Shown piece after piece: positions 17,290 through 42,296 of a DNA stretch of 47,307 nucleotides. The notes under the pieces are model-generated. The model worked only from the letters and a program-made list of their open reading frames with translations, had not been told where the DNA came from and ran no database searches. The position numbers and the translations under genes were made by a program. The number at the start of each line of letters is the position of its first letter. Positions within the stretch are counted from its first letter, which is position 1. The stretch spans positions 4,966,702 through 5,014,008 of the forward strand of contig NC_057758.1 of assembly GCF_004010195.1 (NCBI RefSeq). The letters run 5' to 3'. The DNA comes from Chiloscyllium plagiosum (taxonomy: Eukaryota).

Positions 17290-17930
17290 ATTCACCTCCG
17301 TACTTTATCCATCAATGTTAGAGATAGTGTGCACAGCATTGGACTATTGAATCACTTCAGGACACACAAGACTGATATGGACGAAGGTCATCCTTCACTC
17401 TTAGGTCAAAAGAAGGGGTGGGCTTTCCAAAAGGCACTCTGTGGCCGACCACTTCAAATTCACTTCCGCTTCAACAAGAACGTTCAAGTCCAGGGTTTCT
17501 TCCACCGCCAAATCCAAGAATCCTGTCGACTCGAGGAAGAACGCCACATTTTCTGCTTCGGGGCCCTTCAACCACACGGCATAAATATCGGCTTCAGTAG
17601 TTTGCAAATGACCCATCTGGCAACATCATCCTAGTTCCAACACCCAAACTCGGCACCGCCTCTTGTCCTGTCCCACCTGCCCATCTTCCTTCTACCCTAT
17701 ACGCTCCATCCTCACCATCAACCTATCACAATCACACCCAACCTGCATCCACCTATCACCGCCCCAACCACCTTCCGCCCAACCACATACCTCCCCTCTT
17801 ATTTATCTCTCAATCCTTTCCCCACCCGACTTGTTAAAGAAGGGTTTAAGGCAGAAACGCTGGCTCCCCTGCTTCTCAGACGTTTCCTGACCTGCTGTGC
17901 GTTTGCAGTGACACACTTTTCGACTTTTGA
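17290..17930 (+). mobile_element. Decayed Penelope-like element 3' part (GIY-YIG C-terminus and 3' UTR)
   Basis: Peptide RLEEERHIFCFGALQPHGINIGF matches the LEE..I..LGTLxPxGxN ending of PLE endonucleases. A decayed hammerhead-like aagaagggtttaaggcagaaacg follows at ~17836-17860. Confidence 0.7.
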
Positions 17931-21926: not shown

Positions 21927-22137
21927 TAATTTGGAAATGCCGGTGTTGGACTGGAGTGTACAAAGTTAAAAATCACACAACACCAGGTTATTGTCCAACA
22001 GGATTAATTAGAATCACACTAGCTTTCGGAGCGCTGCTCCTTCACAACCACCTGATGAAGGAGCGATGCTCCGAAAGTTACTGTGCTTCCAATTAAACCT
22101 GTTGAACCATAACCTGGTGTTGTGTGATTTTCAACAC
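21927..22137. mobile_element. Palindromic Penelope-derived insertion with a decayed hammerhead (duplicate at ~25527-25736)
   Basis: Inverted arms aaaatcacacaacaccaggtta.../...taacctggtgttgtgtgatttt. CTGATGA-A-GGAGC-GAT-GCTCC-GAAA at 22052-22076. Flanking direct repeat TTCTGTTC (21919-21926 / 22138-22145). It interrupts the gypsy RT frame. Confidence 0.8.
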
Positions 22138-22275
22138 TTCTGTTCATGAGTCTTTGCAGTGTGGCAGGTGCTTTCTTCATTCCAATGTTTGTCAATTGGG
22201 ATTCATGCAGCTCATTTGGATTTATAAACGAGGAAACATTTTTTGCTTTCTCTGATAAAGATATCTACCAATAAA

Positions 22276-22592
22276 CATGCAGTGAGTCCAAATTTGGGCA
22301 GCACGGTAGCACAGTGGTTAACACTGCTGCTTCACAGCGCCAGAGACCTGGGTTCCATTCCCGCCTCGGACAACTGTCTGTGTGGAGTTTGCACATTCTC
22401 CCCGTGTCTGTGTCGGTTTGCTCCGGTTTCCTCCCACAGTCCGGAGATGTGCAGGTTAGGTGAATTGGCCATGCTAAATTTCCCGTTGTGTTAGTTGTAG
22501 GGGAATGGGTCTGGGTGGGTTTCTCTTCAGAAGGTCGATATGGACTTGTTGGGCCGAAGGGCCTGTTCCCACACTGTAAGTAATCTAAAAAA
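22276..22592 (+). mobile_element. HE1-like SINE inserted in the gypsy RT
   Basis: Homologous to 16541-16866 (A/B boxes, core, tail). Confidence 0.9.
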
Positions 22593-23083
22593 AGACTCCA
22601 ATGATGTTATCGGTAGGAATGCGATTTTGTTAGAGTTGACCTTCCGATAGTAAACATAAAATCTTGAATCCTATCAGGTGTAACAATTAACATCATCGGC
22701 GAATTCCACTCACTCTGACTCGGTTCAATGATATCTTCGTTCAGATTCGCATCCATGTCCTTCTGGATGGGTGTGGCTTTCAGAGGATTAAATCTGTCAG
22801 GGTTTTGATTTTCGGAACGGCACTTCCAACTTCTGCCTTGTACACAATAGTAGAGGTCCTCCCCATTATATTCTAGCATGTGTCCACGTACTATTGCGTG
22901 GACCTTTCAACTCAGTTCTTTACTCCAAAGAGAGAGAGTGATCGTTTTCTAATCCCTCCCACTCCTCAAGGACTTCCTCATTATTTCACGTGTTTTGAGA
23001 CACATCAAAATTCATAACATTCTGATTTGATTACTCTGTGTGCCGGGAGAAAATAACGCCAGCTTCTCCAGTTCCTTGTCTCT

Positions 23084-23583
23084 NNNNNNNNNNNNNNNNN
23101 NNNNNNNNNNNNNNNNNNNNNNNNNNNNNNNNNNNNNNNNNNNNNNNNNNNNNNNNNNNNNNNNNNNNNNNNNNNNNNNNNNNNNNNNNNNNNNNNNNNN
23201 NNNNNNNNNNNNNNNNNNNNNNNNNNNNNNNNNNNNNNNNNNNNNNNNNNNNNNNNNNNNNNNNNNNNNNNNNNNNNNNNNNNNNNNNNNNNNNNNNNNN
23301 NNNNNNNNNNNNNNNNNNNNNNNNNNNNNNNNNNNNNNNNNNNNNNNNNNNNNNNNNNNNNNNNNNNNNNNNNNNNNNNNNNNNNNNNNNNNNNNNNNNN
23401 NNNNNNNNNNNNNNNNNNNNNNNNNNNNNNNNNNNNNNNNNNNNNNNNNNNNNNNNNNNNNNNNNNNNNNNNNNNNNNNNNNNNNNNNNNNNNNNNNNNN
23501 NNNNNNNNNNNNNNNNNNNNNNNNNNNNNNNNNNNNNNNNNNNNNNNNNNNNNNNNNNNNNNNNNNNNNNNNNNNNNNNNNNN
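23084..23583. other. Assembly gap (500 N, probably a nominal size)
   Basis: Run of N of round length. Confidence 0.99.
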
Positions 23584-26500
23584 AACATATCTGTAAGTGA
23601 ATCCCCCAGATTCCGAGACAGAAAACAAGTGGCTTCCAGCAGAATGCAATTCCTGAGGCAAGGAAACGGGGAACAACACATGTGCGAAATCAGAAAGGGA
23701 ATTTGCACATTGATGAGGAGGACTTGGTTCAGAATGTATTTCCCTACGTAATTGGCTGGTGGACTGCAGCACTCTGTTGTTGTTTGGTCACGGTTTATTC
23801 CTTATGTCATGGAAACCAAAGCTCGTTCCACTGTCGTCACAATACAGCAATGGACCAATGATAACTGCTGAAGGAACGGATGCACTCTGGTCCTCCACCC
23901 ATTCAGAGTTCCTCGATTTCCTGAGCGCTACCATTGAATAATGAGCTTCTGAAGCGGTACTTTCCTGATCAGCGAATGTACTGTTGCTACTACTCTCTCT
24001 GAATGAAGGTGGAACTTTACCCAAACTGAAACTTCCCCCTCTGTACATCATCTGGCAACACAACACTGGTTTTTATATTTCATGTCCTTTTCCTTGTTTT
24101 TTTTTTTACATTCTGGGCTTATATCATGAAATTGTAGAAACTGAAAGGAAAGGACTTAAATCCAGGAAAGAAGCAGGTGACTGTCAAGGACAACAGTTGG
24201 TGAGCGGGATCTGTTAATCACCAAATTCAGGAGAATGGGGAGATATACATTAGGTGATTTTACTGCTCCTCGGAAGCTGCCTGAATTGCTTTTGCAGCAC
24301 CACTAATCCAGAGTCTGGTTTCCAGAATCTGCAGTCATTGTGTTTATCTAGGTATACGTTAGTGACAGAAGAGTGAAAACTGTGGATGCGTGTGGCACGG
24401 AGGATTACAGATTTGAGGGAAGATTGAAGAGAAAGCTATTATAAAGAAACTGGAAGTGTCAGTTCTGAATTTCAAACCTGAGCTTATCATTTTTATCATT
24501 TATCTTAAAGGGTGCCCAATGGAAAAATTTAAACACAGAAATATTCTCCGACCGAACTCCCATCTGATCTCTAATGCTCCCTTGTTTCTTCTGTTTAAAG
24601 AACCGTTGTTTTTTGATGTCTTTATTCGAGACACCGCAAACAAAATAAAAGCTCATAAACAGTAATTACTGCTCCAAATAATCGACGAAATCAGCTCCGC
24701 ACTGAAAAACAATCTGAAAGCAAAGGAGCAGTTCTTACAACCCTGATTCACTCCCATCCTCCATCCTGACTGCTTCTTGTTCACACAGACCATACTTGTT
24801 TCTGGCTGGATGAGGTTTTCTCTGGTTTTTAACCTTCCAAATAAAAAGGACACCCATCAGGTGGAGAACCAGGAAATTTGAGGACTGTTGGAAGATATTT
24901 CATTCCTTTCCAGTACTGGAATTTCAGCGACGTTGTCACACAAGGGAGAGGCCATTCACCTATTCGTAATGTGAAAGGCAATCCCTGCCTTATCTGTCCT
25001 ATGAAAGCACGAGCCTGCTGTGACCAGCATCAATGGCAACATCGAACGGTTTCAAGAAAAAAAAATGGATGTAGCTGAAGCAGGTGCAGTGTTTCTCGGT
25101 TGTTTTTTTTAATTCTCAAATGCCTGCTGGCATTATTCTGTCGATCTAAATTTTCTGTTATCAATTAATTAGTCTGTTAACATTGGCACCACGCCATTGA
25201 AGTTTGGAACAAATCTCCGGTGGAATCAACTTTGTCCGAAAAATCGAAGCACCTTTTTCTTCAAGGATGGTCATAGGAATTTCTCAATAACATTTGTCTT
25301 CGCGTTCCTTGGACTTAGCCTTCCATGACTCATATTGTGTCTCAGGGACGTCACACCTGTCTTCGTGAATTCTGTTATCTTCAAGTTTATTAATAGTTTT
25401 CTTTTTATCGTAATCGTTCAAAGAGCTCATCCAGCTATAACGTGTGATCTTTCCATGACTCGCAAAAGATTATTACTTCATCCAGGTAAACTGCCCACTT
25501 TGTTAATACAGTCATAATTCTGTTCTAATTTGGAAATGCCGGTGTTGGACTGGAGTGTACAAAGTTAAAAATCACACAACACCAGGTTATTGTCCAACAG
25601 GATTAATTCGAATCACACTAGCTTTCGGAGCGCTGCTCTTTCACAACCACCTGATGAAGGAGCGATGCTCCGAAAGTTACTGTGCTTCCAATTAAACCTG
25701 TTCGACCATAACCTGGTGTTGTGTGATTTTTAACACTTATGTTCATGAGTCTTTGCAGTGTGGCAGGTGCTTTCTTCATTCCAATGTCAATTGGGATTCA
25801 TGCAGCTCATTTGGATTTATAAACGTGGAAACATTTTTTGCTTTCTCTGATAAAGGTATCTACCAATAAACATGCAGTGAGTCCAAATTTGGGCAGCACT
25901 GTGGCACAGTGGTTAGCACTGCTGCCTCACAGCGCCAGAGACCTGGGTTCCATTCCCGCCTCGGACAACTGTCTGTGTGGAGTTTGCACATTCTCCCCGT
26001 GTCAGTTTCCTCCGGTTTCCTCCCACAGTCCAGAGATGTGCAGGTTAGGTGAATTGGCCATTCTAAATTTCCCGTTGTGTTAGTTGTAGGGGAATGGGTC
26101 TGGGTGGGTTTCTCTTCAGAGGGTCGATATGGACTTGTTGGGCCGAAGGGCCTGTTCCCACACTGTAAGTAATCTAAAAAAAGACTCCAATGATGTTATC
26201 GGTAGGAATCCGATTTTGCTCGAGTTGACCTTCCGATAGTAAACATAAAATCTTGAATCCTATCAGGTGTAACAATTAACATCATCGGCGAATTCCACTC
26301 ACTCTGACTCGGTTCAATGATATCTTCGATCAGATTCGCATCCACGTCCTTCTGGATGGGTGTGGCTTTCAGAGGATTAAATCTGTCAGGGTTTTGATTT
26401 TCGGAACGGCACTTCCAACTTCTGCCTTGTGCACAATAGTAGAGGTCCTCCCCATTATATTCTAGCATGTGTCCACGCACTATTGCGACAGACCTTTCAA

Positions 26501-26675
26501 CTCAGTTCTTTACTCCAAAGAGAGAGAGAGTGATCGTTTTCTAATCCCTCCCACTCCTCAAGGACGTCCTCATTATTTCACGTGTTTTGAGGCACATCAA
26601 AATTCATAACATTCTGATTTGATTACTGTGTCTGCCGGGAGTAAATAACGCCAGCTTCTCCAGTTCCTTGTCTCT
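23584..26675 (+). repeat. Segmental duplication, copy 2
   Basis: Colinear with 19797-23083. Confidence 0.95.
25891..26181 (+). mobile_element. HE1-like SINE (duplicate of 22276-22592)
   Basis: A/B boxes, core and tail present. Confidence 0.9.
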
Positions 26676-27864
26676 ATTATAGTAAGGTTTCAATATACTC
26701 ATGTAACGTACACGATTAAGATTTCTTTTCTATCCGGCATCTTTTACAGATAGTTTATCTGACTCAACATTTTCACAACTTGATCGGGACCACTAAATCT
26801 GGCATGGAAGGGGTCATCTAACATTGGTGACATTCCTCATGTGTCATCCCCACCGGGCAACATCCGAATGATAGAGATTTAAAGGCCACCTATTTACAAC
26901 CTCGCAATGTCTCCTTCACCTGCTGTTTAAATAACACAGCTACCTGATTTAATCTTTCCCTTACAGTGGTTACATAATCCGAGCCTGATTTTTCTTTAAA
27001 TAACTTCAAAGACCCTCTCTCTTTATGTCCAAATACTAACTGAATCGGGTGAAACTGAGTAGATTCGTTTGGGATATCTCTAATGACAACCAAAATTCAT
27101 GGAATACCTTTGCACCAATCTTCGTGCAATCCTAGCAGTAAGCTCTTAAAATGATCTTCAGCGTCTGATGTCACTATTCCAAAGCTCCCTGTAATTCAGG
27201 GTGGTACACAATTGATTTAAAGTGCTGTATGCCTAAGCTATCCATGACTTTGTGAAACAGCGTAGCAGTAAAAGTAAATCCTTGATCTGAATGAATCTCT
27301 CAGGGTCGCCCAAACTGAGTAAAGAAAGCTGCTAACTCCTCCAACACCCTTTTTGTCTTTCTACCCCGTAATGGAATTGGTTCTTGAAAAATGCTCGACG
27401 CATCCATTATGGTTAGGAAGTACTGGTTCCCACTTTTAGTTTATGGGTAGGGAACTACGCCATCAAATATTTCACGCATTAAAGTTTGTTCAAATGCAAG
27501 AATTGGCAACAAACATGCTGGTTTTCTCAGAGCCTATGGCTTGACAAACATTTGGGACTTTGACATGTGTAGCAAAATTTAACCACATTCTTGTGCAGTA
27601 CAGGCCAATGAAATGATTTTTGTCCCTTAGCCTGAGTCTTCCTCGCACCGGGGTGAATTCCTACTGGGAATTGAAGTGCTTCCACAACATGTCCTGACTG
27701 TATGCTGCCGGCAACAAAATCTGGTTCACTTCCAACCCATTTATCCTCTGCACAAACCTGGTCTACTCCCATGTTTGTCTTCGGATTGCAACTTTTTCCA
27801 GCACCACTCTAATCTGGACTCTTTCAGATAATAGCCTTCTGAATTATATTCTGATTCCTTTTCT

Positions 27865-27943
27865 GAGTGTATGTATTTTTACGTGTATGTATACGTGTGT
27901 GTGTATACATATACATATATTTCATAAATATATATATATATAA
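27865..27943. repeat. Compound (TG)/(TA) microsatellite
   Basis: gtgtatgtatacgtgtgtgtgtatacatatacata...tatatatatata. Confidence 0.85.
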
Positions 27944-28264
27944 TATTTTATTTTCTCGTCTTTCTGTTGTAAGCGATTAGCCTTTCAAGTCTAGCACCTC
28001 TTCCCGACGCTCTACCTGTAGATGTTTCTCCTCCCCATAACATCAAACAGTGTCTCTGCTAACTACTTCACACTTCTCCTTCATTTTTGGTTCTTGATGT
28101 TACTATTTTATTTTCTCGTCTTTCTGTTGTAAGCGATTAGCCTTTCAGGTCTAGCACCTCTTCCTGACGCTCTACCGGTAGATGTTTCTCCTCCCCATAA
28201 CATCAAACAGTGTCTCTGCTAACAACTTCACACTTCTCCTTCATTTTTGGTTCTTGACGTTACT
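27944..28264 (+). repeat. 160-bp tandem duplication (2 copies)
   Basis: 27944-28103 repeated at 28104-28264 with a few substitutions. Confidence 0.95.
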
Positions 28265-29223
28265 TATGACAGTAGGATCTTGTTATTATACAGTCTTGTC
28301 AGATTACAGGCTTCCTTTCTTTTAAATCTTCACTACTTTGTTCTTCCTTTGGCTTCTCCACAAGAAGGGGTGTCTGTCCTATCCTGCTAAATTGTTGAGA
28401 AGAACAATCTGTACTTCTGGATCTGACACTCTGTCAATGACTCGCACTGATCCTTTCCCAGCCTTGATTTGGTCACCAAAATGATCTTACAGAGGGCAAC
28501 GCTCAACTTCTGTTCATATCTTCCACAAATTACCCCTCTCTAAGTTAACATGACAGAAAGAGTGCAAATATGTTCATCTCTTACCGTTAGGGACGGATTA
28601 GTGCCCTTATCACTCAAAATTGTAACTTCTTTCCCTTCTCCCCCTTCTTCCTGAATAATCTTACCGGCTGAGGTGATGTTTGACAGCGATCAAACCCTAA
28701 CTCAATATTCAGCTCCTGCCTTGGCAGTGCCCTTTTTTGTTGCTCCTTAACTTCTCTTGTGGTTTCCTTTGCGAATTCAACTAATGCTACTGGCTGCGCC
28801 TCTCTTCACACATCTTTTCCCACAGTGCCCTTCTGTAATGACAAGTGCTGTGCCTTTTCCTGTCCCACCTTATCACAGTGGAAACAAGTGAGGCCTTTCA
28901 CTTCCTTTTCACCCGTCGCTATGCATCTAGTATCAATTCATAGTCACTCAAAATAGCCTTGCTTGGCATCTTTCGTCTCATGACCCCTCATCTGACAGCG
29001 TTGCAAATACCTCATAGCCCTGACTACAAGTTAAGCTTAAAGTAGCATTACCCACACATTCTCCGGCCTTTCCACCTGCCCGCCAAGTTTTCAAATTAAA
29101 CACAGAAGGCTACAAATCTTTCTCATCAAAATGCGACGATGTCGTGACATATGTGTCATCGCCATCCTGTTAACTTGACTTTCCTTAATAATTCGCAACT
29201 TATGATGTTCAGTCAGTCTCTTC

Positions 29224-29516
29224 NNNNNNNNNNNNNNNNNNNNNNNNNNNNNNNNNNNNNNNNNNNNNNNNNNNNNNNNNNNNNNNNNNNNNNNNNNNNN
29301 NNNNNNNNNNNNNNNNNNNNNNNNNNNNNNNNNNNNNNNNNNNNNNNNNNNNNNNNNNNNNNNNNNNNNNNNNNNNNNNNNNNNNNNNNNNNNNNNNNNN
29401 NNNNNNNNNNNNNNNNNNNNNNNNNNNNNNNNNNNNNNNNNNNNNNNNNNNNNNNNNNNNNNNNNNNNNNNNNNNNNNNNNNNNNNNNNNNNNNNNNNNN
29501 NNNNNNNNNNNNNNNN
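29224..29516. other. Assembly gap (293 N)
   Basis: Run of N. Confidence 0.99.
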
Positions 29517-31234
29517 TCTTCTAACATAATTTGCTTCAACAGCAATTGACGTTTTTTCGTAACTCTACTGCAGGTACATAGGTCTCTGCTACACCGACGT
29601 GCTTGCCAAAGTATTATTTTGGCTTTCCTTTTGTCCCCGGCTAAAACCAATTCCATCTGTTCGCTATTGCAAAAAGGAAGCCCTTCCATTGTCAGCACAT
29701 TTGGGAAATATGTTCACACCTCAGAACCTCGTTCACAATCTTCAGAACCATTTCCTCACTTTTAAGTTATCCAAGACAGGTCACCGAAAAAACAAAACCG
29801 ATGATCTCACTTATACTTTATTTAACAATCCAGGGCACTAATCGTCAACTGTTTAAATCGACTGGGAAAATGTCTACCTCAAACGTCTTGGAATCTGTAG
29901 AAGTCTCAGACTGGATATGTCCAAACCTTTCCAAATCCGTACAAATCTCGAGCTCGATATCTTTAATGTCACGGCGGTCAACCCCTTTGTTAATTAAGAA
30001 AAAACACTCAGAAAGACTCACCTCTCCTCGTAACCTGTCAAAATACGAATGAGAGAGAATTTGCAAAAGTAACATCAGCATTTCAATTCTGAAAGTGAAC
30101 ATTAAACAGCAACTGTTCACAATGGTCCGCCCTCGTTTCTTAAGTGCATTTTTTCTGCCTTCAACTCTGTACAATTACACTATTCCACTGGGACAAATAT
30201 TGAAGTTACATCAACTTAATTTCAAAACGACACAGAAACTGTTGTGTTCCGTGACTTCACTCTTAAGGCTGCTGATTTCCGTGGGTCATCTTCTTTCTTT
30301 TTATTGCTAACATATTTCATATGAAAAGCTATCTTCGATTCACACTCTTGCCTAATCTTTTGGAGAGCAAAACATATGTTCTCCAGGCATTTCTGTCTCG
30401 ATGGCACTTGCTGTGTCGCTAATTTACAAAATGTCTCTACTTTTATATCCCAACAACTGATCGTCTCATATGTCAGGTGTTGGAAATACAACTAATTCAC
30501 ATTTGACCAGATTTCCATATCCTGGGGCATAATTTAAACTGGTTAGTTAAATTCAGATTGTTGCCAAAAGAGCAACCAATACACAGGTATCCATTTCGCA
30601 GCCAATTGTTGCATATTTTCAATTTCCCAGAACTCACTGGGACTGCCATGCAGTATTGTACACAGGTGGTTGAAAGGTCTCAGTTCAGAACAGCATCCCC
30701 TCTCTGTTAAAGTTACAGTACATGCCTTGAACTTTATAACAATGTGATCAGATCACTTCGAAAACAAACATTTTATTTGTTTGATTCTCTTTGTTCTTTT
30801 ATGATTGCCTCCTAGATTCCTGTCTATGAACATTCACAGAAACAGTTATCCGAATGTGTACCGTGTTCTGCTACCCATCACAGCAGCTTATTCTAAGTCG
30901 GTGTGCCATCCAGGAGCCTCTCAGTGTCAGAAGATGAAGAGTCTTGAGACGGCTCAGTGAATGTCCTGTGGTATTCTGACCACCAGCGACTGTTTAATGG
31001 AGCTCGTTTAAGACTACAAGGGCTCAAACATTTCTATTTACTCTTCCTCCGATTATCAATCACGGGTCGGTGATAAGTGCGCTGGAAACAGAGAAAAAAA
31101 CTGCTTCCGTACTATTTTCAGTATACACAAGACAGAAACAATCCTCGAGGCGAGACAGAGATTCTCCTTGACCTCATCTTCGTGAAACACTCAGAAGGGG
31201 ACAGCACAGGTTTAAGTATACAATGAATCAGCTC

Positions 31235-31850
31235 AACAAGCACACACAGCTCTCATGCACTTTAATTTCCCTTGACTCTTTATCCCCTTTATCTCTCTCC
31301 CATTCGCACTCTTTCTGCCACTCTCTCTCTCAGTCGACCTTGCTTGCTATCTCTCGCTATCGCTCTTGCACACTCATGCTTTCTACCATTCACATTCCAG
31401 CTCCCACTCCTGCGAACTTGCTCTCTCACTCTCCTGCTCTCTCACTCGCAATCACATTTAAACGCTCAGTGTCACGTTCATTACAGGACATTCATGCTCA
31501 TATCCCCACTATCACGCTCACGAATCTACCGTCACTTTCACTACCTCACCGTCACGCCCATTGCCGCACAGTCACTCTCCTTCCCTCACCATCAAGCTCT
31601 CCCTGCCAGAGTAGCGCTCCCCCCACTGTGGTCAATGTCACTCTCAAAGTCAAGCTCACTCCCTCATCGTCGCTCTCACTCCCCCACAATCACGTTCACT
31701 TCATCACCATAGAGCTCAATTCCTCACCATCAATCTCATCTCGACCATCATTCTCACTCCCTCACTATCACGCTCAATTCCTCATCATCACCCTCACTCC
31801 CTCACCGTCACTTTTAATCCCTCACCATCACGCTCAATTCATCACTAATA
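31235..31850. repeat. C/T/A-rich degenerate minisatellite (ctcactccctcaccatcacg-like units)
   Basis: Recurrent ctcac/catcac motifs and G-poor composition. This explains the long spurious ORFs here. Confidence 0.85.
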
Positions 31851-31959
31851 CCTATTTCTGAACTGAACTAAATTCTATTGGTAAACTGATTCAATAACAT
31901 AGGTCCCACATATATAACAAAATATTAAAGCAAGTTCCTGAATGTGAAAAACATTTCAG

Positions 31960-33476
31960 GCGGGATATAATTCACTATAGCTGTCCCCTGCCGACAAGTA
32001 AAAGTGTGTTTCAGTGTTTGTCAACCATAATGGACATATCCAACAGATTTCAGTTATCACGTTTCAATGCAAAAAAAGTTGGTAGAGGGGTTAGTAGCTA
32101 TTTTCACGCTGCATGGACGATCCAGAGGGATTATAGTCGGACCAACATTCAAATGTTACTGTGAGGTTGTTCAAGGAGACTATGGATAGTTGAATTGAAC
32201 CATACTTAAATCTAGTGCATATCACAAATAATCATAGATAGCTTAAGGAAGGTTGAATCAGACCTTGAGAGCATACAAACAGGACGATCTGAATGATTGG
32301 GATAAAGGTATCCCATTCATCTTGCTTGCCATTGGAGATGCCCTAAACGAACCAACTCTGTTTACTCTCTTTGAGTTGACATTCGGACATCAAATGAGAC
32401 TCCTTTTGAAATTAATTCAATAAAAATTTGACAGAACCAAAGTCGGAGATGTCACACTTATATCATTTATCTTAGTTGAGGGAGGTGAATTACCTAAACA
32501 AGACCTAAAGAGGGCACAGTATACAGTGAAACAGGGGAAAATAAAAGCGCTGAGTCTCAGACGCTTTTCCAAGGGGATAACTTGTTAATACTGTTCCCAA
32601 GTAAGAGGTCTCTTCAAAGCCAGGTTTAGTGGCCCCTATCAAATTGAGAAAACGTTGAGTCAGGTAAAGTATTTATTAAAGATGTCAGATGGAACAAAAG
32701 TATTAAGTTTTCCCTGTGAACATGATGAAACCATATTATACAGGAGAGAATGCATTAGATAAACAGGTGTTCGTTAGTTACTGTCTCGCAGAATGAGGAA
32801 AATAATACAGATGATGTAGATTTTGAGATGCCTCAAAATAGATTTTAAGGAAAGGAGTTCTTGAGGCCTAGGATAGGTTAGTAACCTATCTGTCTCAGGA
32901 GCATGGACCACATTCGAAAGATTTGTTAATGCAATAAAGGACATATGTAAAAATCTGGCTTAATTCTTTCAAAGCCAGACAGTTCCAGATGGAGGTGAAG
33001 GGCATTCTCCAAGAGGACATCATCGAAACAAGTCAAAATGAGAGGAGTGCGCCGATCATCTTCATTGCTGAACCGGACTGGACTCATTGATTTTGCATGG
33101 AATACTTGAATGAAAATGCCGTAACAGAATTGGACTCCTCTACAATTCCTTGACTATAGGACTGTATAAAGAAAAGCGGACAAGCCAGTTCCATCACCAA
33201 GTCTTAAATAATGCGTGGTTTTTGGCAGGTTTCTTTATCAGAGATGGTGAAATCAATGTCTGTGTTTGTAACCACAAATGGACAAAATCGGTTCAAAGTG
33301 ACGCCCTTTCGAATGAAGAACGCTCCCACCACATTCCAAAGGCTTATGAACAGAGTTGCGACTGGTGTAATAACTATGCAGTATATGTGGACGAGGTAGT
33401 GATGTTTCCTAAGTCCTGGAATGATCACATGGTACAGTTGACTGAACTCTTTCAACGGATACGAGAAGCAAACTGA
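31960..33476 (+). mobile_element. Second decayed Gmr1-like gypsy element (integrase followed by RT)
   Basis: DWDKGIPFILLAIGDALNEPTLFTLFELTFG (~32295-32390) and FKARFSGPYQIE (~32613-32650), followed by DIIETSQNERSAPII (~33015), RGFWQVSLS..FRMKNAPTTFQRLMNRV and AVYVDEVVMF. Confidence 0.88.
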
Positions 33477-33479
33477 TGA

Positions 33480-33940
33480 AGTTCTTGGAAAGACTGTAAC
33501 GGACACTACATTGGATAACAGACAGACATCTCGGCACCAGGATATATGAATATCAACTAGCCACAGAAAGACATATCCAACTCTCACTGGTATCCTTCCA
33601 TACGGTTGAGGAAGTACACCACTTCGAATGTGACGTTTCAAACGGAACTCTGTCGATAAAAACACATTGTCTTGAATGCCATTTACCACTTCCTCAGAAA
33701 AGAACAGGAAATGACATCGCAGGAGGAAATAGCATCATCATACGAAATGGCATCACCAACTGAAGGAAACTCAAACATATAAATCGAAAGAGGGCGACGC
33801 CACCAGTGCTTCATCCGGAGGCTCACTGAAGATGTTACCTAGTATGGTGACGAAACGTTTGAAAATGAACTTACCAGCTCAGCGAGTAAACCTATATCCA
33901 GAACCTCAACCTGAGCTACAAATGTTCTCAATACTCTCTA
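33480..33940 (+). mobile_element. 5'-truncated Penelope-like element (decayed GIY-YIG plus 3' terminal region)
   Basis: KDCNGHYIG..RHLGTRIYEYQLAT homologous to the 37150 ORF. The 3' end ccagctcagcgagt..ctgagctacaaatgttctc is homologous to 38566-38629. Confidence 0.85.
33823..33862 (+). ncRNA. Minimal type I hammerhead ribozyme motif
   Basis: Stem I TCA(33823-25)/TGA(33860-62); CTGAAGA 33826-32; extra T; stem II GTTACC/GGTGAC; GAAA 33852-55; palindromic ACGT stem III; GUU cleavage triplet. Confidence 0.78.
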
Positions 33941-33944
33941 ATAT

Positions 33945-34560
33945 AATGTAACATTTTGGACCAGTAAATAGTGTTGATTGACGACTGGAAACGGAAAAAC
34001 AGTTTGGAATTAGGCTAATCTGTTGAAATTGTACCCCGAAAAATACCAAACACCAATCCAATTTGATTTTATTATATTGGCAATCTAAAAAGCCCATGAC
34101 GCAATCCGATGTTTTGGGGGATAAGAGCGGCAAAAACTGGACAGTTGAGAGGAGAACTGACAAGTCACCAGCATGTAAACCGAAAGCCAAAAATAGCTAT
34201 CTTAAATTTACTTTTATGGATCAGGAACTTGTGAAGCAGAAATCCCGAAGAAGAATGAAAGAAGATTCTAAATCTGATTGGCGTTTTGTAATGTTGAATA
34301 TTGGTAAATCTTAATCAGGGGTGGTGGGGCGCGGTTTCTCGCATTTGTGTTTTGGATGGAAGTTAGAAGATACGTCAGAGTGACGACCTATAAATTGCTG
34401 TTAGTTAATTATTCTCTGTTATTCTTCAGAAACGAAGTTGGTAATTGTTGCATTAACTAGCTCTTTGCCTATCGAATTTTCACAGATTACTGGGCGTGAT
34501 CATTTTTCCTGTGTTGCTGGTTTTAAATTAAGCAGGAAAATTGCCTCCGTGTCGCAGCAG
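33945..34560 (+). mobile_element. Possible LTR remnant
   Basis: Non-coding segment after the gypsy/PLE, starting near tgtaaca and ending ...cgtgtcgcagca. No second copy in the window to confirm it. Confidence 0.3.
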
Positions 34561-34608
34561 TGCTCCATGTTGAAATGTTTTCAATTAGTATTCGAACCCC
34601 TACAATGC

Positions 34609-34760
34609 GGATTGTGGTAGGGATCCGGAGCATCGAGTGGAGACCCCCGCACAAACACGTGGATATTGTGCAAAATCAATACCGATAGTTGCTCGAAGCT
34701 GGAATCCAACCTTGGTAGCTGGCGTTTCGCAGCAACAGTGCTAACCAATGGGCCACCCTG
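34609..34760 (-). mobile_element. Decayed HE1-like SINE 5' part
   Basis: Reverse complement ggtggcccattggttagcactgttgc..ggttggattcc resembles the A/B boxes of the 16541 SINE. Confidence 0.65.
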
Positions 34761-35379
34761 CTCCCCATGTTGGTCAGCAGCTTTCATCATCTGTGAATCA
34801 TGGAACTGAATCTTGGACTGCACCTGTCCACTGAACGCCTGTGTTTGTCGCTCTCAGCTGATTGTGCGCACAGTAACAAGAGGAAGTCGTGCTATGTGCG
34901 ATCGTGGGCAGAGACGGTTGGGTGGGACAGAACATGCATAGAAGATATCAGTGCAAATATGTGTAAAAAATAACTAGGGTTTAGGACATCGGCAGAGATC
35001 GAGGCGGAGCAACATTCTACGGAGTGATGCGATGATGTACTTGAGAAAATTAAAATAATACCCTTGGTAGACCATAGCATAGTTTTCATTTCTTTTCAGT
35101 ATACTAACGTGCTTTTCTTTTCAGCATATTACACTTTATTTAAAACATTCACCAGTTCAAAATTTAGGAGCAAATTATAAGGTTTTCTTGAATGAAAGAA
35201 AGAGGAGCTTACTAACCCCTCCAAACAAAATGAATAAAACGTGACATTAAACACATGCAAAAACATATATAAATTTAAGAAGTGGATAGTGTCTAGTGCA
35301 AAATAAAAGAATATTCAGTTTAAAAGTCCCTGAGCTGGTAGGTTTTAATCTGAGACCACAGCTATTTTCTCATGGCTTG

Positions 35380-35810
35380 TGGGTGTTGATGGCCAGGCTA
35401 GCATCTGTGGTCTGTCCCTATTTGCCTTTGTGAAAGTGATGGTAAGCTGCTTTCTTGAATCTCAGGGGATTTCCGGGGAACCTGTTGATATGGTATTCCC
35501 ATGTATCTGCTGCCCACATTCTTTTAGATGGAAATGCCCATGGGTTTAGAAGGTGCTGTCTGAGGATCGTTGCTAATTTCTGCAGTGCATCTTGTAGATA
35601 ACACAGACTGCTGCTACAGATTATCGGTGGTGGAGGGAGTGGATGCTTGTGGATATGGTGCCAATCAAACAAGCTGCTTTGTCCTGGATGGTGCCAAGAT
35701 CATTGAGCCTTGTTGGAGCTGGACTCATCCAGGAGGGTGGGAAGTATCAATCACACTCCTGACTTGTGCCTTGTAGATGTTGGACAGTCTTTGAAGAGTC
35801 AGGAGGTGAA
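35380..35810 (-). mobile_element. LINE 3' fragment (same family as 1590-2110)
   Basis: ctcctgacttgtgccttgtagatg and the RFKKAAYHHF ending are shared with 1590-2110. Confidence 0.75.
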
Positions 35811-36663
35811 CTCCTTAGTACTAGTTTAATCAATGTCTTATATTCTCAACAGTAGCAAAATTTGTAGATATATTCTTTGGAAAATTGATGTTCTCCAGGT
35901 TGTTTTGTTATTGGGTGAGATAAAAGGGACCAAGTCCCACTGTTACTTATCCTTTCTGCCAATGCAGCTGCTTGAAATTTAGGTAATTTGTTTATTCATG
36001 TGTCTGACACAATTGATTTTCCAAGCTGAATAATTTGCGGGTAAATCTTTCATCCCAATATGTGAATTTACCTGTCAAGGTGTAACTCAAGCAGGAGTTA
36101 CAGATCTGAGTTTCTATGCCTTTTGATATTGGCACAGACTGATTCTTGTTTCTTAATGGTTCCATAAGCTGGTTCAGCTTGTGGTTAGCTGATTGCTGCA
36201 GCCCGTTTGCCAGTGTTTTCTCCTTTCTGGTTGGGTATGTGAGGAGCGTGTTGGTGGAGTAGGTCCAGTGGGGTGTCAAAGGATCAGTTATATAGTTACG
36301 CAGGTATTAGACATGGGTTTTACCTGTCCAATGCTTCCTCATCAATTATCCTGATAAATAAGTTGGAACCTTCTGAAGTCTAACTCGGAGATGGAGACAG
36401 ATTGTTATTCGACCATCAATATGCTGTGTTACCTATTCTGGAAAGGGTACAGACCATTTTACAGGAAAATGAAGGACCGGCAGTCAGAGTCCATTGGAAG
36501 GAAGATTGGAGAGGCTAGAGTTTAAGAAGCAAATTAAAAAGCAGTACCGCAGAGCTTACTCCCAGTGCCACAAGCCAGACATAGAAGGATATTGCAAGGT
36601 TATGCATAGCTAGAGACATCCTGCAATGGAAGACCTCAAGAGTCCTGGGTTATTAGATTACGG

Positions 36664-36867
36664 CTGAAAATGTGTTGCTGGAAAAATGCAGCAGGTCGGG
36701 CAGCATCCAATGAGCAGGAGAATCGACGTTTCGGGCATGAGCCTGAAGAAGGGCTTATGTCTGAAACGTCGATTCTCCTGCTCCATGGATGCTGCCTGAC
36801 CTTCTGCGTTTTTCCAGCAACACATTTTCAGCTCTGATCTCAAGCATCTGCAGTCCTCACTTTCTCC
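36664..36867 (+). mobile_element. Palindromic Penelope-derived insertion with a hammerhead core
   Basis: Arms aaaatgtgttgctggaaaa..cgacgtttc / gaaacgtcg..ttttccagcaacacatttt. CTGAAGA-A-GGGC-TTAT-GTCT-GAAA-CGTC at 36743-36770. TSD TTATTAGA(T/C)TACGG at 36650-36663 and 36868-36881. Confidence 0.85.
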
Positions 36868-37124
36868 TTATTAGACTACGGGGAAATTAACTAGTCTTAT
36901 GGGAGAGAATTTAAATTAATTTGATAGAAGTTTGAGCACCAAAGTATAATGTTAAAAAAAAGAAACTGGCTGCATAGAGAACTGAGTGATAATTAATTAA
37001 GTGGGGTCACAGAAAATTTAAGAAATTCTCAGTTTATTTGGGGTGCTTATGTGTGAACTTGCAGTGTGAGGTTCAGAAGATTGATTGATTAAGTGCTGTC
37101 AACTTGCAGGTAGTGGTGTCTCAC

Positions 37125-37610
37125 CAGAGCGAAGGACACGATACCCAGCATGAGCAAAACTAATATAGTGTACAAAATTCCATGCAAGGACTGCACAAAA
37201 CACTATATAGGACAAACAGGAAGACGGCTAACGACCCGCATCCATGAACATCAACTAGCCATGAAACGCCTCGACCAGCTATCCTTAGTAGCCACACACG
37301 CAGACGACAAGCAACATGAATTCGACTGGGACAACACTACCATTATAGGGCAAGCCAAACAAAGAACAGCCAGGGAATTCCTAGAAGCATGGCACGCATC
37401 CACAAACTCCAACAACAAACACATAGACCTGGACCCAATATACCGGCCACCACAGCGGACAGCTGAAACTGACAACCGGAAGCAGCAGGGACAGGCCACT
37501 ATAAATGCCGGAGGAAACACCACAGAAGCGCTTCACAGGAGGATGTCACCTAGACAGGGGACGAAAAGTTTGCAACAAAAATTTCCAGCTCGGCGAACAG
37601 TACCATAACA
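37125..37610 (+). mobile_element. 5'-truncated Penelope-like element with an open GIY-YIG endonuclease frame
   Basis: ORF 37150-37608: NIVYKIPCKDCTKHYIGQTGRRLTTRIHEH...REFLEAWH..NSNN (VY-YIG, CxxC, catalytic R/E/N). The hammerhead CTGA is removed by an internal deletion near 37540. Confidence 0.92.
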
Positions 37611-38374
37611 TTATTGACACCATTAAGAATTTATTTCATAGCTCAATATTCAGATAGCAGACGGTAAGAGCTGGTGAAGTATATCCTGGAATTGGTAGTA
37701 GTGAACATTCAGAATGTTCAGTGTATTGAGTCAGCAATAAGCTCATGGTCAAAGGAATCACTACAGTTTCGATTCATCGGTAACACCCGCATTTATTGAC
37801 CAGTGACAGGATGGAGTCAGAGAAAGTGATTGGACGTTATAACCAGAGCAGAAGACAGTGGCCTCCAAGCTCCCATTTTCTTTTCAAAACGATAAGGGCA
37901 GTGATTAAATGAACTGTGGTTCACAGCTGGATCTGAGATGATCAATAGAGAGACAGACAAGGGAATGTGCCAGAAGCAAAGAGAAAGAGAGTGAACGAAT
38001 AAGTTCATGGATGCAGTTAGCCGCGATTTATAGAGTGAATATCTGGATTCAGCGTCTCAAACTGAATGTTAACAGTACCAAGGAGGGTAGGGAAAATGTA
38101 AAGAACAATAATACAGTTATACATTGTTGATAGAAATAAAAACTGCACTTTGAGTCTGAGCAGGCACACCAATAATCCAGTATAGGACAATGAAAATATT
38201 CAATAATGCAAAGTGTATGTTGGATCCGCCAATATCATGACCATCAATCAAACTGTGTAAAATGATAGGAAACATTCCAGTGTAAGTTCCTGCCCATTTA
38301 CTCCTACATGTCAGTCTAATATTCTCAGATTCTGGTCTCTACTATCTTTCTCTCTGGACGTGCTGATCTCTGTT

Positions 38375-38629
38375 GTTGTGGTTCTGTTCGCCGAGCTGGA
38401 AGTTTTTGTTGCAAACGTTTCGTCCGCTGAAAACTGACAACCGGAAGCGGCAGGGACAGACCACTATAAACACCAGAGGAAACATCAAAGAAGCGCTTCG
38501 CGGGAGGCTCCTAAGCACTGATGATGTCGCCTAGCCAGGGGACGAAACGTTTGCAACAAAAGCTTCCAGCTCGGCGAACAGAACCACAACAAGGAGCACC
38601 CGAGCTACAAATCTTCGCACAAACTTTGA
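38375..38629 (+). mobile_element. Short Penelope insertion with an inverted 5' terminal fragment
   Basis: 38372-38424 is the reverse complement of the 3' terminal region. Perfect 15-bp TSD GTGCTGATCTCTGTT at 38360-38374 and 38630-38644. Same family as 37125-37610. Confidence 0.92.
38503..38567 (+). ncRNA. Minimal type I hammerhead ribozyme motif
   Basis: GCA(38515-17)/TGC(38552-54); CTGATGA 38518-24; stem II GTCGCCT-AGCC-AGGGGAC; GAAA 38544-47; ACGT stem III; distal stem I GGAGGCT/AGCTTCC. Confidence 0.82.
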
Positions 38630-39689
38630 GTGCTGATCTCTGTTAGTACCGTAGATGATGCTCCGACTAAAACTATGGAATAACACATTGTTTGGAGCTT
38701 ATTTACCAGTAAACATGAAAACCCTCCACTTGGAAAATTAGAATCCATTAGAATCCATGACTAAATCATCAAAAAGAGGTTCAGGTAACCCAGTTCTTAC
38801 ATTATTATTTATGTTACAACAAAAGGAAACAATTACTCAGTTTCCATGGAATGGACGAGGGTTGCTGTAATATTAACCATCCATTACTCAATCTAATTGA
38901 TCTTTCTTCCCTGTCTGTGAGAGTACTGTCGGAACACTACAGGGTTGTAGATGTACCCGCCCACTCCAGCCTCCTCCGTTTATAAAACAGGAATTAAACA
39001 ACAGGCCAACTTCATAAAAAAGACTGCTGGGGAAATTTCGAGTGACCATAAACCAAGGTAACAATATTTATTGGCCAATGACTTTGTGTAATGCTGCTCC
39101 CAGTTTTAAGTGCCCTGTTATCAAAGTCTTTCATAACTCTGAGACATCATTCACTTCATTGAAACCGCTGATCATGAAAAGGGGGAATCAAATCTTCCTC
39201 ATATGCCTGGTACAGAGGGATAGGAGAAGGGCATTCAGCCCACAAAGGACTGCTGCAACTTGAAGAGATGGAAAGCTGAATCGTTACCACATTTTGCAAA
39301 AGAAACCATTCAAAGCATAGAGAACTGTTACTGCAACTACACAAGGTGTTACTGAAAGGACGCGTGGAGCAAATTTTGTTGTTTGCATTTCTGAGAAGGA
39401 ATGGACCTCCATCAGAAACAGTTTACTGGTTGCTCATACTGCACGTCTTGCTGTCTCATTTAATGTTTTGAGCCTGTTTCAGAGGCTAGGAGGACGCTAT
39501 TCAGTCAATAAAACTGTGACAGAGAGACAGGACGGGGCCATTCAGCCTCTCGCTTGTGTTATACGTGAATTGAAGGAGGCCATTCAGCCTCTTGCGCCTT
39601 TTACACAGGAACAGAAGGAAGTATTTCTGTTTTTAGTGTCTGCTACACTGCAACAATTAATTTAAGAAAGTTATGGAAAAGGATAAACC

Positions 39690-41110
39690 TCATGTAAACG
39701 TTGAAGTTCTAAATTGGAGGAAGTCCAATTCTGAACTCATTCGGCATGCACTTTGAAAAGCTGATTGAAAGAGACATTTTGCAGGTAAAGGGACGTTTAT
39801 CATTATGAACCGTGAAAATACCGTGTGTTGCTGGTAGGAAGAAGGACAAGAATGGTAGGTGTCGGAAAATCTGAATACATGGAGAAATGTGGCTAACGTC
39901 AAGCAAAAGCAGGAAGCATATGACATGTATAGACATCTGGGATCAAGTGACTCCCCAGCGAAGTATAAAAACATTAGAACTATAGTCAAAAGGGCGAAAA
40001 GGGGACATGAGACCGCTTTGGTAAAATCCAAAGATATTCTACAAATATGTAAAGAAAACAAAGGGCAATAAGTAGAGAATAGGGCTCTTTAATGATGAAC
40101 AAGTCGTCTATGTGTGGAACCACCAGAAATGGGTGAGATACTAAAGAAATATTTTGTGTCAGTATATACTGGGAAGAAAGATATAGAAGGTGGATAACTC
40201 GGAAAAAGAAATAGTGATGTTCTCACAAGGCTCCATATTACAGAGTAGATGGCGCTGGATGTCTGAAAATGTCATAAAGAACGACAAATCTCCGGGAGCC
40301 AATCGACGGTGTACTGGAACGCTGTGAAAAGCTGGAGAAGTGATTGCTATGCACCTTGCAGATATATGTGTGTCATTGATGACCACGGGGGAGATGTTTG
40401 ACGACTGAAGGATGGCTGGAATTGGGGTTAAGAAAGGTGTTCAGAAAAAGCCAGGAAACAGAGATCAGTGAGCGTGTCGTCAGTGACAGGCAATCTATTG
40501 GAGGGGATTCCAAAGAATTTGATTTTTTAAAATGTTTTTGGAAAGGCAATTGCCGTTTTGGAATAGCCAACATGGCGTTGTACGTTGGACATCATGTCTT
40601 TCATCCTCGTTGTTTTTTTTGAAGAAGTGACAAATACAATTGATGAATGCAGAGTGCTAAATATGATCTGCACAGACTTCATTAGCCGTTCGATAAGGCT
40701 GCTCATGTTAGATTGTTTAGCACAGTCATATCACACGGAATGCAGGGGAGGCGAGCCATTTGGATACTGAACTGGCTCGAAGGTAGGAGAACAGGCCGTT
40801 TTGGTGAAGAGTAATATTACAAACTGGAGGCTTCTTCCAAGCACTGTGCCCCAAGGATTCGTGCTGGCTCCACTATTTTTTCGAAATTTACATAAATGGC
40901 TTGGATTTGAATGAAGGAGTTATGGTTTCCAAGTTTACGGACAACATCACAAATGGAAGTGCAGTCAACAACGATGAAGGTTGGCACAGAGTAAAAAGGG
41001 ACCTTGATCAGATGGGCAGAAGATGGACAGATTGAGTTTATTTCAGATAAATGTGAGTTTTGCATTTTGCTATGGCACATCGGAGCTACATTTAGAGGTA
41101 GTGTTCTGGG
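39690..41110 (+). mobile_element. Decayed CR1/HER1-type LINE ORF2
   Basis: VLNWRK, DKSPG, VPQGFVLAP, SKFTDN (FADD-like) and DKCEFLHF motifs appear in the expected order. Confidence 0.85.
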
Positions 41111-41294
41111 AAGTACTTCCAAGACAGAAACTTTCATCAAAGTTATAGAACCACTGCAGAGTTGAACCATGCGCTTTGGCCAGTTGGATTTACACTGACT
41201 GTCCAAAGAGTATCCGACCTGACACACCCACAGCTTGTTTCTGAAACCCTGCCTTTCTCTCAGCTCAACACGGGATACTGCAGGCAATTAAACA

Positions 41295-41476
41295 ACGCCA
41301 ATGCACCTAAACTCCACATCTTTGGACTGTGAGAGTTAATTAGAACATCCAGAGGAAAACCACGCAGATACGTTCGAGAATATGCAAGCTCCACACAGAC
41401 AATCGCTGGAGGGTGGAATCGAACGCTGGTCCTTGATACTATGAGGCAGCAGTGCAAACCAAGCAGACATCGTGCC
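41295..41476 (-). mobile_element. Decayed HE1-like SINE
   Basis: Reverse complement matches the SINE core (ctgtgtggagcttgcatattctc..tctgcgtggttttcctctgg..cacagtccaaagatgtg). Confidence 0.8.
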
Positions 41477-41602
41477 ATCCAAGTGATTCTCAGAGACTGA
41501 ATGCACTCTCCCACTTTCTCCGCAAGCCTCACATATTTTCAAATGGTATCGAATTCCAGTGGGGTTATTGTGGTTCTGTTCGCCGAGCTGAAAGTTTGTG
41601 TT

Positions 41603-41642
41603 GCAAACGTTTCGTCCCCTGGCTAGGCGACATCATCAGTGC
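41603..41642 (-). ncRNA. Minimal type I hammerhead ribozyme motif (inverted copy)
   Basis: Exact reverse complement of 41666-41705. Confidence 0.8.
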
Positions 41643-41665
41643 TTGGGAGCCTCCGAGGCTCCCAA

Positions 41666-41705
41666 GCACTGATGATGTCGCCTAGCCAGGGGACGAAACG
41701 TTTGC
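41666..41705 (+). ncRNA. Minimal type I hammerhead ribozyme motif
   Basis: GCA-CTGATGA(41669-75)-T-GTCGCCT-AGCC-AGGGGAC-GAAA-CGT-T-TGC. Confidence 0.82.
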
Positions 41706-42019
41706 AACAAAAACTTCCAGCTCGGCGAACAGAACCACAACAACGAGCACCCGAGCTACAAATCTTCGCACAAACTTTGAAAACTTACGTCCAGTGGGGT
41801 ATCTTCGAAATGACATCTTTTTCCCTTACCTGAGAATTCCACCCCCTTTCAATCTCTGGTGGAATGGGACTTTAGCTGTGACTATTCTATCTTCTGCACC
41901 TCGACCACATCCCCTCCTTCCCATATCAAGTCGTCTATTGATACTGTATGCAAAATGCTTAAATTACTAAATTACAACAAGGAAGTGCAGGTGCTGGAGA
42001 TCTGAAACAAAATCTCTTC

Positions 42020-42296
42020 TGATGCAAAGTCTCAGATTTGAAATGTTGGCTCCGCTTTTTTTCTACAGATGCTGCCAGACTTCCTGCGTTTCATCAGCAA
42101 CTTCTGTATTTGCATATCTCATTTCCTGTTTAACACTTGTACAAAATTTGCCCTGCAGTGATGCAAAGTCTCAGATTTGAAATGTTGGCTCCGTTTTTTT
42201 TTACAGATGCTGCCAGACTTCCTGCGTTTCATCAGCAACTTCTGTATTTGCATATCTCATTTCCTGTTTAACACTTGTACAAAATTTGCCCTGCAG
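42020..42296 (+). repeat. ~139-bp tandem duplication (2 copies)
   Basis: 42020-42158 repeated at 42159-42296. Confidence 0.95.

What the first reader, a model, noticed from the sequence alone, without database searches (positions are those of the whole stretch)
22049..41705. Four distinct hammerhead variants with co-varying stems across Penelope subfamilies
The cores CUGANGA and GAAA are constant while the stems change and still pair. Stem I is GCA/UGC (38.5k, 41.6k), UCA/UGA (33.8k) or CAC/GUG (22.0k, reconstructed from both arms). Stem II is GUCGCCU/AGGGGAC, GUUACC/GGUGAC, GGAGC/GCUCC or GGGC/GUCU (36.7k). Stem III is always a 4-nt palindrome (ACGU or AGCU), too short to close alone, which implies dimeric cleavage as described for minimal hammerheads. 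All four have one extra nucleotide between A9 and stem II. Triplets are GUU, GUC and CUA. Ribozymes of this class are known, but I cannot tell whether these particular variants have been described.
Basis: partly seen in the sequence, partly recalled or inferred. Interest (0 to 1): 0.72.

Follow-up and report, generated by a model that had tools for sequence, protein, structure and literature searches.

The report
Minimal hammerheads of shark-type Penelope elements
These are real but ordinary copies of the tiny, likely self-cutting RNA motif already known from the ends of Penelope-type jumping genes; they come from two lineages of such elements, two of the four are damaged in this window, and the stem changes are genuine but few.

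Summary
The motifs are real: 7 in the window against 0.035 in shuffles. They sit at the ends of Penelope-like elements (PLEs). The 33.8k, 38.5k and 41.6k motifs belong to two sister Poseidon-type subfamilies; 22.0k and 36.7k to two Neptune-type families. Exact cores number 13,153, 17,627 and 80,723 in the genome, controls 0. The extra nucleotide after A9, the palindromic stem III, family covariation and weak dimeric cleavage are all in Cervera and De la Pena 2014. Corrections: 22.0k and 36.7k are broken here; the 38.5k/41.6k stem II carries a family-wide purine-G mismatch; among the four, only one stem I pair is a compensatory change between alignable families, besides the palindrome swap. Three more appear in relatives of 36.7k. 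Most copies here are fold-backs predicted to hide the ribozyme. Cleavage was not tested. Indirect support: 2 of 4 U6-PLE joins sit exactly at the predicted cut. Against: about 190 RNA reads cross it uncut. The scan noted this class, the U6 joins and the start/stop overlap before, on other DNA of this genome.

The parts
22049..22083 (+). Family C (Neptune-type) minimal hammerhead, damaged: core and stem II intact, stem III palindrome and stem I 3' strand mutated; right arm of a fold-back stub
   Evidence: intact family form
21929..22044 (-). Left arm of the family C fold-back stub; holds stem II, GAAA, AGCU, CUA and the stem I 3' strand but not the start of the core
25648..25682 (+). Second copy of the damaged family C motif, inside a 3-kb repeat (20029-23083 = 23617-26675, 97.1%) that flanks a 500-N gap
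33484..33941 (+). 3' end of a family B (Poseidon-type) element: decayed endonuclease region and terminal repeat
   Evidence: blastn to L011, 80-85% identity; endonuclease frames upstream of B motifs
33823..33862 (+). Family B minimal hammerhead, intact in sequence; predicted cut after 33859; UGA of CUGA is the stop of the incoming frame, A9-U-G10.1 reads AUG
36655..36868 (.). Family D (Neptune-type) fold-back stub, 186-bp inverted repeat plus tail
36743..36774 (+). Family D minimal hammerhead, damaged: begins at C3, lacks the stem I 5' strand, G10.1-U11.1
   Evidence: family form
37120..37610 (+). 3' end of a family A element: GIY-YIG-like frame and a hammerhead remnant near 37540-37575 with the CUGANGA core deleted
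   Evidence: 86% identity to full element L216; Pfam GIY-YIG E 0.014, below cut-off
38372..38629 (.). Family A insertion: 58-bp inverted arm, 200-bp sense arm, 12-bp target-site duplication
38515..38554 (+). Family A minimal hammerhead, intact in sequence, G.G mismatch in stem II; predicted cut after 38551; holds AUG and UAG of the element's frame
41603..41642 (-). Family A minimal hammerhead on the minus arm of a 181-bp palindrome
41666..41705 (+). Family A minimal hammerhead on the plus arm of the same palindrome; predicted cut after 41702
42019..42084 (+).

Best explanation
These are minimal type I hammerhead motifs in the terminal repeats of Penelope-like retrotransposons, which likely cut slowly and only when two copies from the same family pair up, probably helped by the element's protein. 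Shown: the motifs, their families, their place at the ends of RT/GIY-YIG elements, and two same-strand copies about 2.5 kb apart in full family A elements. Inferred mechanism: in an element transcript that holds two repeats, the two ACGU (or AGCU) palindromes pair with each other as stem III, and each core takes its cleavage triplet and stem I 3' strand from the partner copy; G12 and G8 then cut after GUU, GUC or CUA. Only a minority of transcripts would be cut; most new DNA copies come from uncut RNA. In families A and B a cut would drop the AUG that lies inside the ribozyme and so end translation of that RNA. The copies in this window are truncated insertion by-products, mostly fold-backs, and likely do not cleave.
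For: Not chance; exact cores 13,153 (A), 17,627 (C), 80,723 (D), reversed-pattern controls 0. Full elements with two A motifs 2,502-2,503 bp apart in 2 loci, each fetched twice, among the 50 RT loci scanned; one frame of 837 codons from the AUG at A9-U-G10.1 to the UAG at the tip of stem II, with 3 decay stops and no frameshift; Pfam RVT_1 E 1.9e-11. GIY-YIG E 1e-4 with a Cys linker upstream of D; RT-like frames and Cys linker beside C. Compensatory changes between family masters: I.3 in A/B; I.1, I.3 and II.4 in D/E/F; ACGU versus AGCU keeps a palindrome that cannot pair within one strand. Literature: monomers inactive, dimers weakly active (PMC4209133); the Anolis Poseidon hammerhead cuts in a core-dependent, protein-assisted way, its ORF starts at stem II, and uncut RNA is the main substrate (PMC11167929). 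Of 30 U6 loci read, 4 join family D sequence and 2 of these start at the first base after the predicted cut, against 2 of 56 ordinary D copies.
Against: No cleavage assay. The double-hammerhead fold is never the predicted minimum: 5.2 to 15.4 kcal/mol above it for six natural homodimers. D1/D2, the most abundant forms, have a U.U in stem I. In one RNA run depth across the family A cut is flat (about 196 to 191) and no end pile-up is listed; that poly(A) single-cell library is a weak test. The U6 evidence rests on 2 loci. In A/B the core also codes for protein, so coding constraint can explain part of its conservation. E and F copies were found with patterns that fixed parts of their stems, which inflates cell counts.
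Confidence: 0.72

Rival explanations
1. The motif is kept mainly as a folded protein-binding, promoter-edge or start/stop signal, and cleavage is rare and unimportant.
For: Catalytic mutants do not affect PAc insertion in vitro and no RNA-seq ends were found at its cut; Naiad PLEs multiply without canonical hammerheads (PMC8557442); reads cross the cut uncut; in A/B the motif overlaps both start and stop; many D copies begin 0-5 nt before C3 (87 of 95 stubs).
Against: The full catalytic core, NUH triplet and palindrome are kept in Neptune-type families C-F too, where no long frame starting in the motif was seen; U6 joins at the exact bond.
Confidence: 0.18
2. With the element's protein bound, a single motif cleaves as a monomer and the palindrome serves something else.
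For: PAc cleavage needs protein; the parts read do not show that it needs two copies.
Against: A15.1-U16.1 closed by a 2-nt loop is not formed in the predicted monomer folds; the ACGU to AGCU double change makes sense only between strands; S. mansoni monomers did not cut.
Confidence: 0.08
3. The matches are chance hairpins made by the fold-back structure of the insertions.
For: Four of the five loci named are inverted repeats.
Against: Stem II lies within one arm; the 33.8k copy has no fold-back; shuffles give 0.035; tens of thousands of exact copies.
Confidence: 0.01

Closest known systems
Minimal hammerheads (min-HHR) in pseudo-LTRs of metazoan PLEs, Cervera and De la Pena 2014 (PMC4209133; main text parts 1-2 of 4 and supplement parts 1-2 of 3 read)
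   Same: Core, extra nucleotide between 9 and 10.1, G10.1-C11.1, palindromic 15.2-16.2, short stem I, several consensus families per genome with covariation, mostly lone truncated copies, inverted pairs 100-700 bp apart, triplets GUU, GUC and CUA. The Clonorchis sinensis (2) row of Fig. S3 has the same stem I, core, extra U, triplet and a mismatch at stem II pair 4 as family A.
   Different: No shark-type sequence among the Fig. S3 rows read. Copy number here is about 2 x 10^5 by extrapolation against about 4,000 and 9,000 for coelacanth and Xenopus, with different descriptors and genome sizes.
Poseidon element PAc of Anolis carolinensis, Frangieh et al. 2024 (PMC11167929; parts 1-2 of 4 read)
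   Same: RT then GIY-YIG; ORF starts at stem II of the hammerhead; two preferred insertion ends 30-40 nt apart (here 36 nt).
   Different: In family A the stop codon of the upstream frame also lies in the motif, 8 nt after the A of the AUG; in B it is the UGA of CUGA. The parts read do not report this for PAc. PAc was assayed; these were not.
Neptune-clade PLEs (definition from Craig et al. 2021, PMC8557442; passages read)
   Same: Cys-rich linker between RT and endonuclease in families C and D; fold-back and tail structure.
   Different: Clade assigned by the linker only; no tree with named references was built.
PLE-associated small hammerheads of Lunse, Weinberg and Breaker 2017 (PMC5785218; not held, only title and a review's passage seen in PMC6765202)
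   Same: By title and review: small variants that cleave as dimers.
   Different: Could not check whether these sequences are in its lists.

Membership tests
min-HHR of metazoan PLEs | CUGANGA and GAAA core with NUH triplet | tested here: met
   7 of 7 window motifs
min-HHR of metazoan PLEs | [quoted passage not shown] | tested here: met
   7 of 7
min-HHR of metazoan PLEs | G10.1-C11.1 pair | tested here: met
   6 of 7 window motifs; the 36.7k copy has decayed to G-U, its family has G-C
min-HHR of metazoan PLEs | Palindromic minimal stem III | tested here: met
   5 of 7 window motifs; the 22.0k pair is mutated, family C has AGCU
min-HHR of metazoan PLEs | Short stem I that pairs | tested here: met
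   3 bp in 4 of 7 window motifs; broken at 22.0k, 25.6k and 36.7k; family forms 2-4 contiguous bp
min-HHR of metazoan PLEs | Located in terminal repeats of RT/GIY-YIG elements | tested here: met
   A flanks a full ORF on both sides; B and D follow endonuclease frames; C precedes RT-like frames
min-HHR of metazoan PLEs | Site-specific self-cleavage as a dimer | not testable with these tools
   Indirect only: U6 joins; RNA lays inconclusive
Penelope/Poseidon clade (families A, B) | RT followed by GIY-YIG without a Cys linker | tested here: met
   L195 frame runs from RT to endonuclease without the motif; A and B endonucleases 58% identical over 121 aa
Penelope/Poseidon clade (families A, B) | RT phylogeny groups with named Poseidon elements | not tested
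   No named reference sequences were fetched
Neptune clade (families C, D) | CX2-5CxxC linker before the endonuclease | tested here: met
   Seen in L223 and L239 (D) and L248 (C); L217 (C) keeps part of it. Nematis shares this feature.
Neptune clade (families C, D) | RT phylogeny groups with named Neptune elements | not tested
   No tree built
Canonical type I hammerhead (Rfam models) | Match to an Rfam hammerhead model; long stem I with loop contacts | tested here: not met
   No hammerhead family among 15 matches at E<=5; stem I is 2-4 bp
Non-LTR retrozyme (tandem non-coding repeats with a hammerhead in each unit) | Two or more consecutive head-to-tail units, each with a complete motif | tested here: not met
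   Window copies are lone or inverted stubs with no head-to-tail units; definition from bioRxiv 10.64898/2026.07.22.740005

The most novel reading that the evidence does not exclude
Stem I and the stem III palindrome form a partner code: because both helices form between two copies, a ribozyme can cut only with a partner of its own clan, so some 2 x 10^5 genomic motifs do not cross-trigger each other. The cut happens in vivo (U6 joins), acts in Poseidon-type elements as an off-switch that removes the start codon, and host A-to-I editing of fold-back copies erases the GAAA core. Limits: cross pairs lose all stem I between A/B and D/E/F and half of stem III with C, but A with B keeps 2 of 3 pairs and D, E and F can cross-pair.
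Probability: 0.25. Interest if true: 0.55.

Novelty: new member of a known kind. Interest (0 to 1): 0.25.

Why it matters
As a class this is known and the window copies are likely inert. Its use is as a test set: what PLE hammerheads do is still open (PMC8557442 says so), and this genome offers at least six natural families with matched and mismatched stems. They allow a direct test of whether cleavage needs a like partner, whether the element's protein supplies the missing stability, and whether cutting off the start codon controls translation.

Tried and rejected
Rfam scan: no hammerhead match. DNA search of the genome with window 41655-41760 returned nothing because common words are skipped; patterns were used instead. 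A first family C pattern had a 4-nt loop and found 6 copies; the 3-nt loop gave 17,627. A stricter first descriptor missed family A because of its mismatch: 1 in the window, 11 in 386 kb. An apparent pile-up of family C 5' ends at the cut (33 of 114) was dropped as an artefact of a 2-nt indel between subfamilies under an ungapped walk. The '45 of 51' background count printed is an off-by-one error and was not used. An extra G before D copies (a lead from earlier notes) was inconclusive: of 28 stubs matching 4 nt upstream of C3, the next base was G in 11, T in 13 (T is templated in one subfamily), A in 4. The run search listed no holder on record as RNA; run X22 laid 0 reads. Other CUGANGA...GAAA strings in the window (2745, 33473, 44061, 46640 on +; 42097, 13925, 8916 on -) failed the descriptor. 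The tool's shuffle control reached significance for cells but not for the number of covarying pairs (170 of 500 and 448 of 500 shuffles as high), and it ignores relatedness, so it is not taken as a formal covariation test. No protein fold, complex prediction or protein database search was run; none would change the verdict.
Full report
Setting. The window is G000:C49:4966702-5014008 in a 3.56-Gb genome. I call it shark-like from recalled SINE likeness and from earlier notes of this scan; I did not test this. The only clear host gene seen is a rhodopsin-type receptor at 12742-13692 (Pfam 7tm_1, E 3e-23), far from the motifs. Family letters A-F are my own labels.

Observation. A text scan found 14 CUGANGA...GAAA strings; 7 pass a minimal-hammerhead descriptor, against 0.035 on average in 200 shuffles. 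They are 22052, 25651, 33826, 36743, 38518 and 41669 on + and 41639 on -. Pair-by-pair reading shows 33.8k, 38.5k and both 41.6k motifs complete, with 3-bp stem I, ACGU and GUU. The A motifs have G.G at stem II pair 4. At 22.0k the core-bearing arm has AGUU, UUA and no stem I, and the other arm lacks the start of the core. At 36.7k the motif starts at C3, has one stem I pair and G-U at the base of stem II. Rfam found no hammerhead.

Families and numbers. Exact patterns gave 13,153 A, 17,627 C, 80,723 D, 303 E and 350 F cores, with 0 for each reversed control. B gave 2,614 first-look candidates, 40 scored. The descriptor found 42 motifs in 677,958 bases of 70 arbitrarily placed stretches, 0.45 in shuffles, which extrapolates to about 2.2 x 10^5 (a rough figure).

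What carries them. A and B follow GIY-YIG frames that are 58% identical over 121 aa. Among 50 loci fetched around RT hits, two places hold two same-strand A motifs 2,502-2,503 bp apart. In L216 one frame of 837 codons runs from the AUG formed by A9, the extra U and G10.1 to the UAG at the tip of stem II of the second motif, with 3 premature stops; 73 of 87 A copies keep both codons. Its RT matches Pfam RVT_1. In B the incoming frame stops at the UGA of CUGA. No Cys linker lies between RT and endonuclease, which fits the Penelope/Poseidon clade (definition in PMC8557442, passages). D follows an endonuclease with a Cys linker (GIY-YIG E 1e-4). C precedes RT-like frames about 29% identical to the A protein and a Cys linker; the one C frame scanned had no Pfam hit. 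C and D are therefore Neptune-type by the linker; no tree was built. In the window the copies are 3' ends (33484-33941; 37120-37610) or fold-back stubs (22.0k, 36.7k, 38.5k, 41.6k), one with a 12-bp target duplication.

Covariation. A and B align without gaps over 82 columns (27 copies). One pair changes on both sides as a family trait: stem I pair 3, G-C in 79 of 84 A copies and U-A in 40 of 46 B copies (4 further copies unassigned, and one B row is a false hit). Stem II pair 3 goes C-G to U-G, pair 4 is purine.G in A (78 of 84) and A-U in B, pair 7 is U-A in A and U.U in B. D shares downstream sequence with E and F. Across them stem I pair 1 goes C-G to U-A (E), pair 3 U-A or U.U to G-C (E, F), and stem II pair 4 C-G to U-A (E, F; the aligner gapped F there). 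90.1% and 91.9% of cells pair, against 10-52% when partners are slid. The number of covarying pairs does not beat the shuffles, and E and F were picked by patterns that fixed parts of the stems; F's stem I was not fixed. So four family-level double changes plus the ACGU/AGCU swap: real, few. Within a family the variation is mostly CpG-type decay, as expected of dead copies.

Mechanism. A 2-nt loop cannot close stem III, so I infer the double-hammerhead form: palindrome with palindrome, and stem I made from the 5' strand of one copy and the 3' strand of the other. Nearest-neighbour energies put this fold 5.2-15.4 kcal/mol above the best dimer fold in six natural homodimers (the A2 copy used has a stem I mutation), which fits weak, protein-assisted activity. 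Cross-family pairing gives 0 stem I pairs between A/B and D/E/F, 2 of 4 stem III pairs with C, 2 stem I pairs for A with B, and up to 4 (partly G-U) within D/E/F. So partner choice would work between clans, not within them. Transcripts through the four fold-backs folded are predicted long hairpins (-105 to -176 kcal/mol) that bury the core or its 3' half.

Evidence on cutting. Following earlier notes, I read the 30 best of 48 scored U6 loci. Four join family D sequence; L263 and L280 start at the first base after GUC, L275 and L279 start inside the ORF. Ordinary D copies start there in 2 of 56 cases. This is suggestive on small numbers. One RNA run (X21, poly(A) single-cell, about 2% read, species label shared with the best DNA holder, not shown to be this animal) laid 952 reads on a full A element and 352 on window 41655-41785, mostly in one orientation, with flat depth across the cut and no end pile-up. 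Read ends cluster at two insertion ends 36 nt apart, like the PAc tail. A>G changes were listed at 12 places in RNA against 1 in a DNA run. Two groups of loose read ends (9 and 7 reads) differ from family A only by A to G, at 8 and 7 places by my reading, including the GAAA. This looks like A-to-I hyper-editing of fold-back RNA, but no matched DNA was available and the reads may come from any copy.

Comparison with what is known. Cervera and De la Pena 2014 (PMC4209133; main parts 1-2 of 4, supplement parts 1-2 of 3) list the extra nucleotide, G10.1-C11.1, the palindrome, covarying families, inverted pairs, inactive monomers and weak dimers. Their Clonorchis (2) motif is near family A in layout; no shark row was seen. 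Frangieh et al. 2024 (PMC11167929, parts 1-2 of 4) show core-dependent, protein-assisted cleavage, an ORF that starts at stem II and no need for cleavage in insertion. A 2026 preprint (10.64898/2026.07.22.740005; part 1 of 5 and passages) scanned one chondrichthyan genome for tandem motifs; its supplements were closed and may list related sequences. PMC6765202, PMC6155905 and PMC13725137 were seen as passages only. Lunse et al. 2017 was not held. Five searches showed no paper on these particular variants; that is limited to the open library.

Earlier scan notes report the same class, U6 joins, copy numbers and start/stop overlap on other DNA of this genome. I found the overlap before reading those notes on it; the U6 test was their lead.

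Verdict. New members of a known kind. Interest 0.25.

Noticed in passing
window 20029-23083 and 23617-26675: A 3-kb direct repeat at 97.1% identity on both sides of a 500-N gap; may be an unmerged assembly overlap, so the 25.6k motif may not be a separate copy.
   Followed up: no
L261, L268, L269, L273, L278, L281-L286 (U6 loci): 11 of 30 U6 copies run almost directly into the head of the abundant SINE-like repeat also seen at window 16534-16850 and 22295-22589; L271 joins it internally; L264 is followed by a tRNA-like sequence (by eye).
   Followed up: partly
window 41655-41785, run X21: Reads with clustered A-to-G changes that turn the GAAA core into G-rich sequence; likely ADAR hyper-editing of fold-back copies.
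   Followed up: partly
family A, e.g. window 38526-38543: Two subfamilies keep different purine-G mismatches (G.G and A.G) at the same stem II pair and almost never a C; the 3' G is the middle base of a Gly codon in the start frame.
   Followed up: partly
window 12742-13692 +: Single-frame rhodopsin-type 7TM receptor of 316 aa (Pfam 7tm_1, E 3e-23).
   Followed up: no
window 2536-2588 -, 7020-7064 +, 17837-17919 +, 20657-20735 +, 47139-47197 +: Further old fragments of the D/E terminal-repeat clan without intact cores.
   Followed up: no
G000:C9:98397780-98397879 and G000:C4:6293770-6293982: Same-strand pairs of E motifs 65 bp apart and F motifs 187 bp apart; possible short head-to-tail, retrozyme-like units that could form cis dimers.
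   Followed up: no
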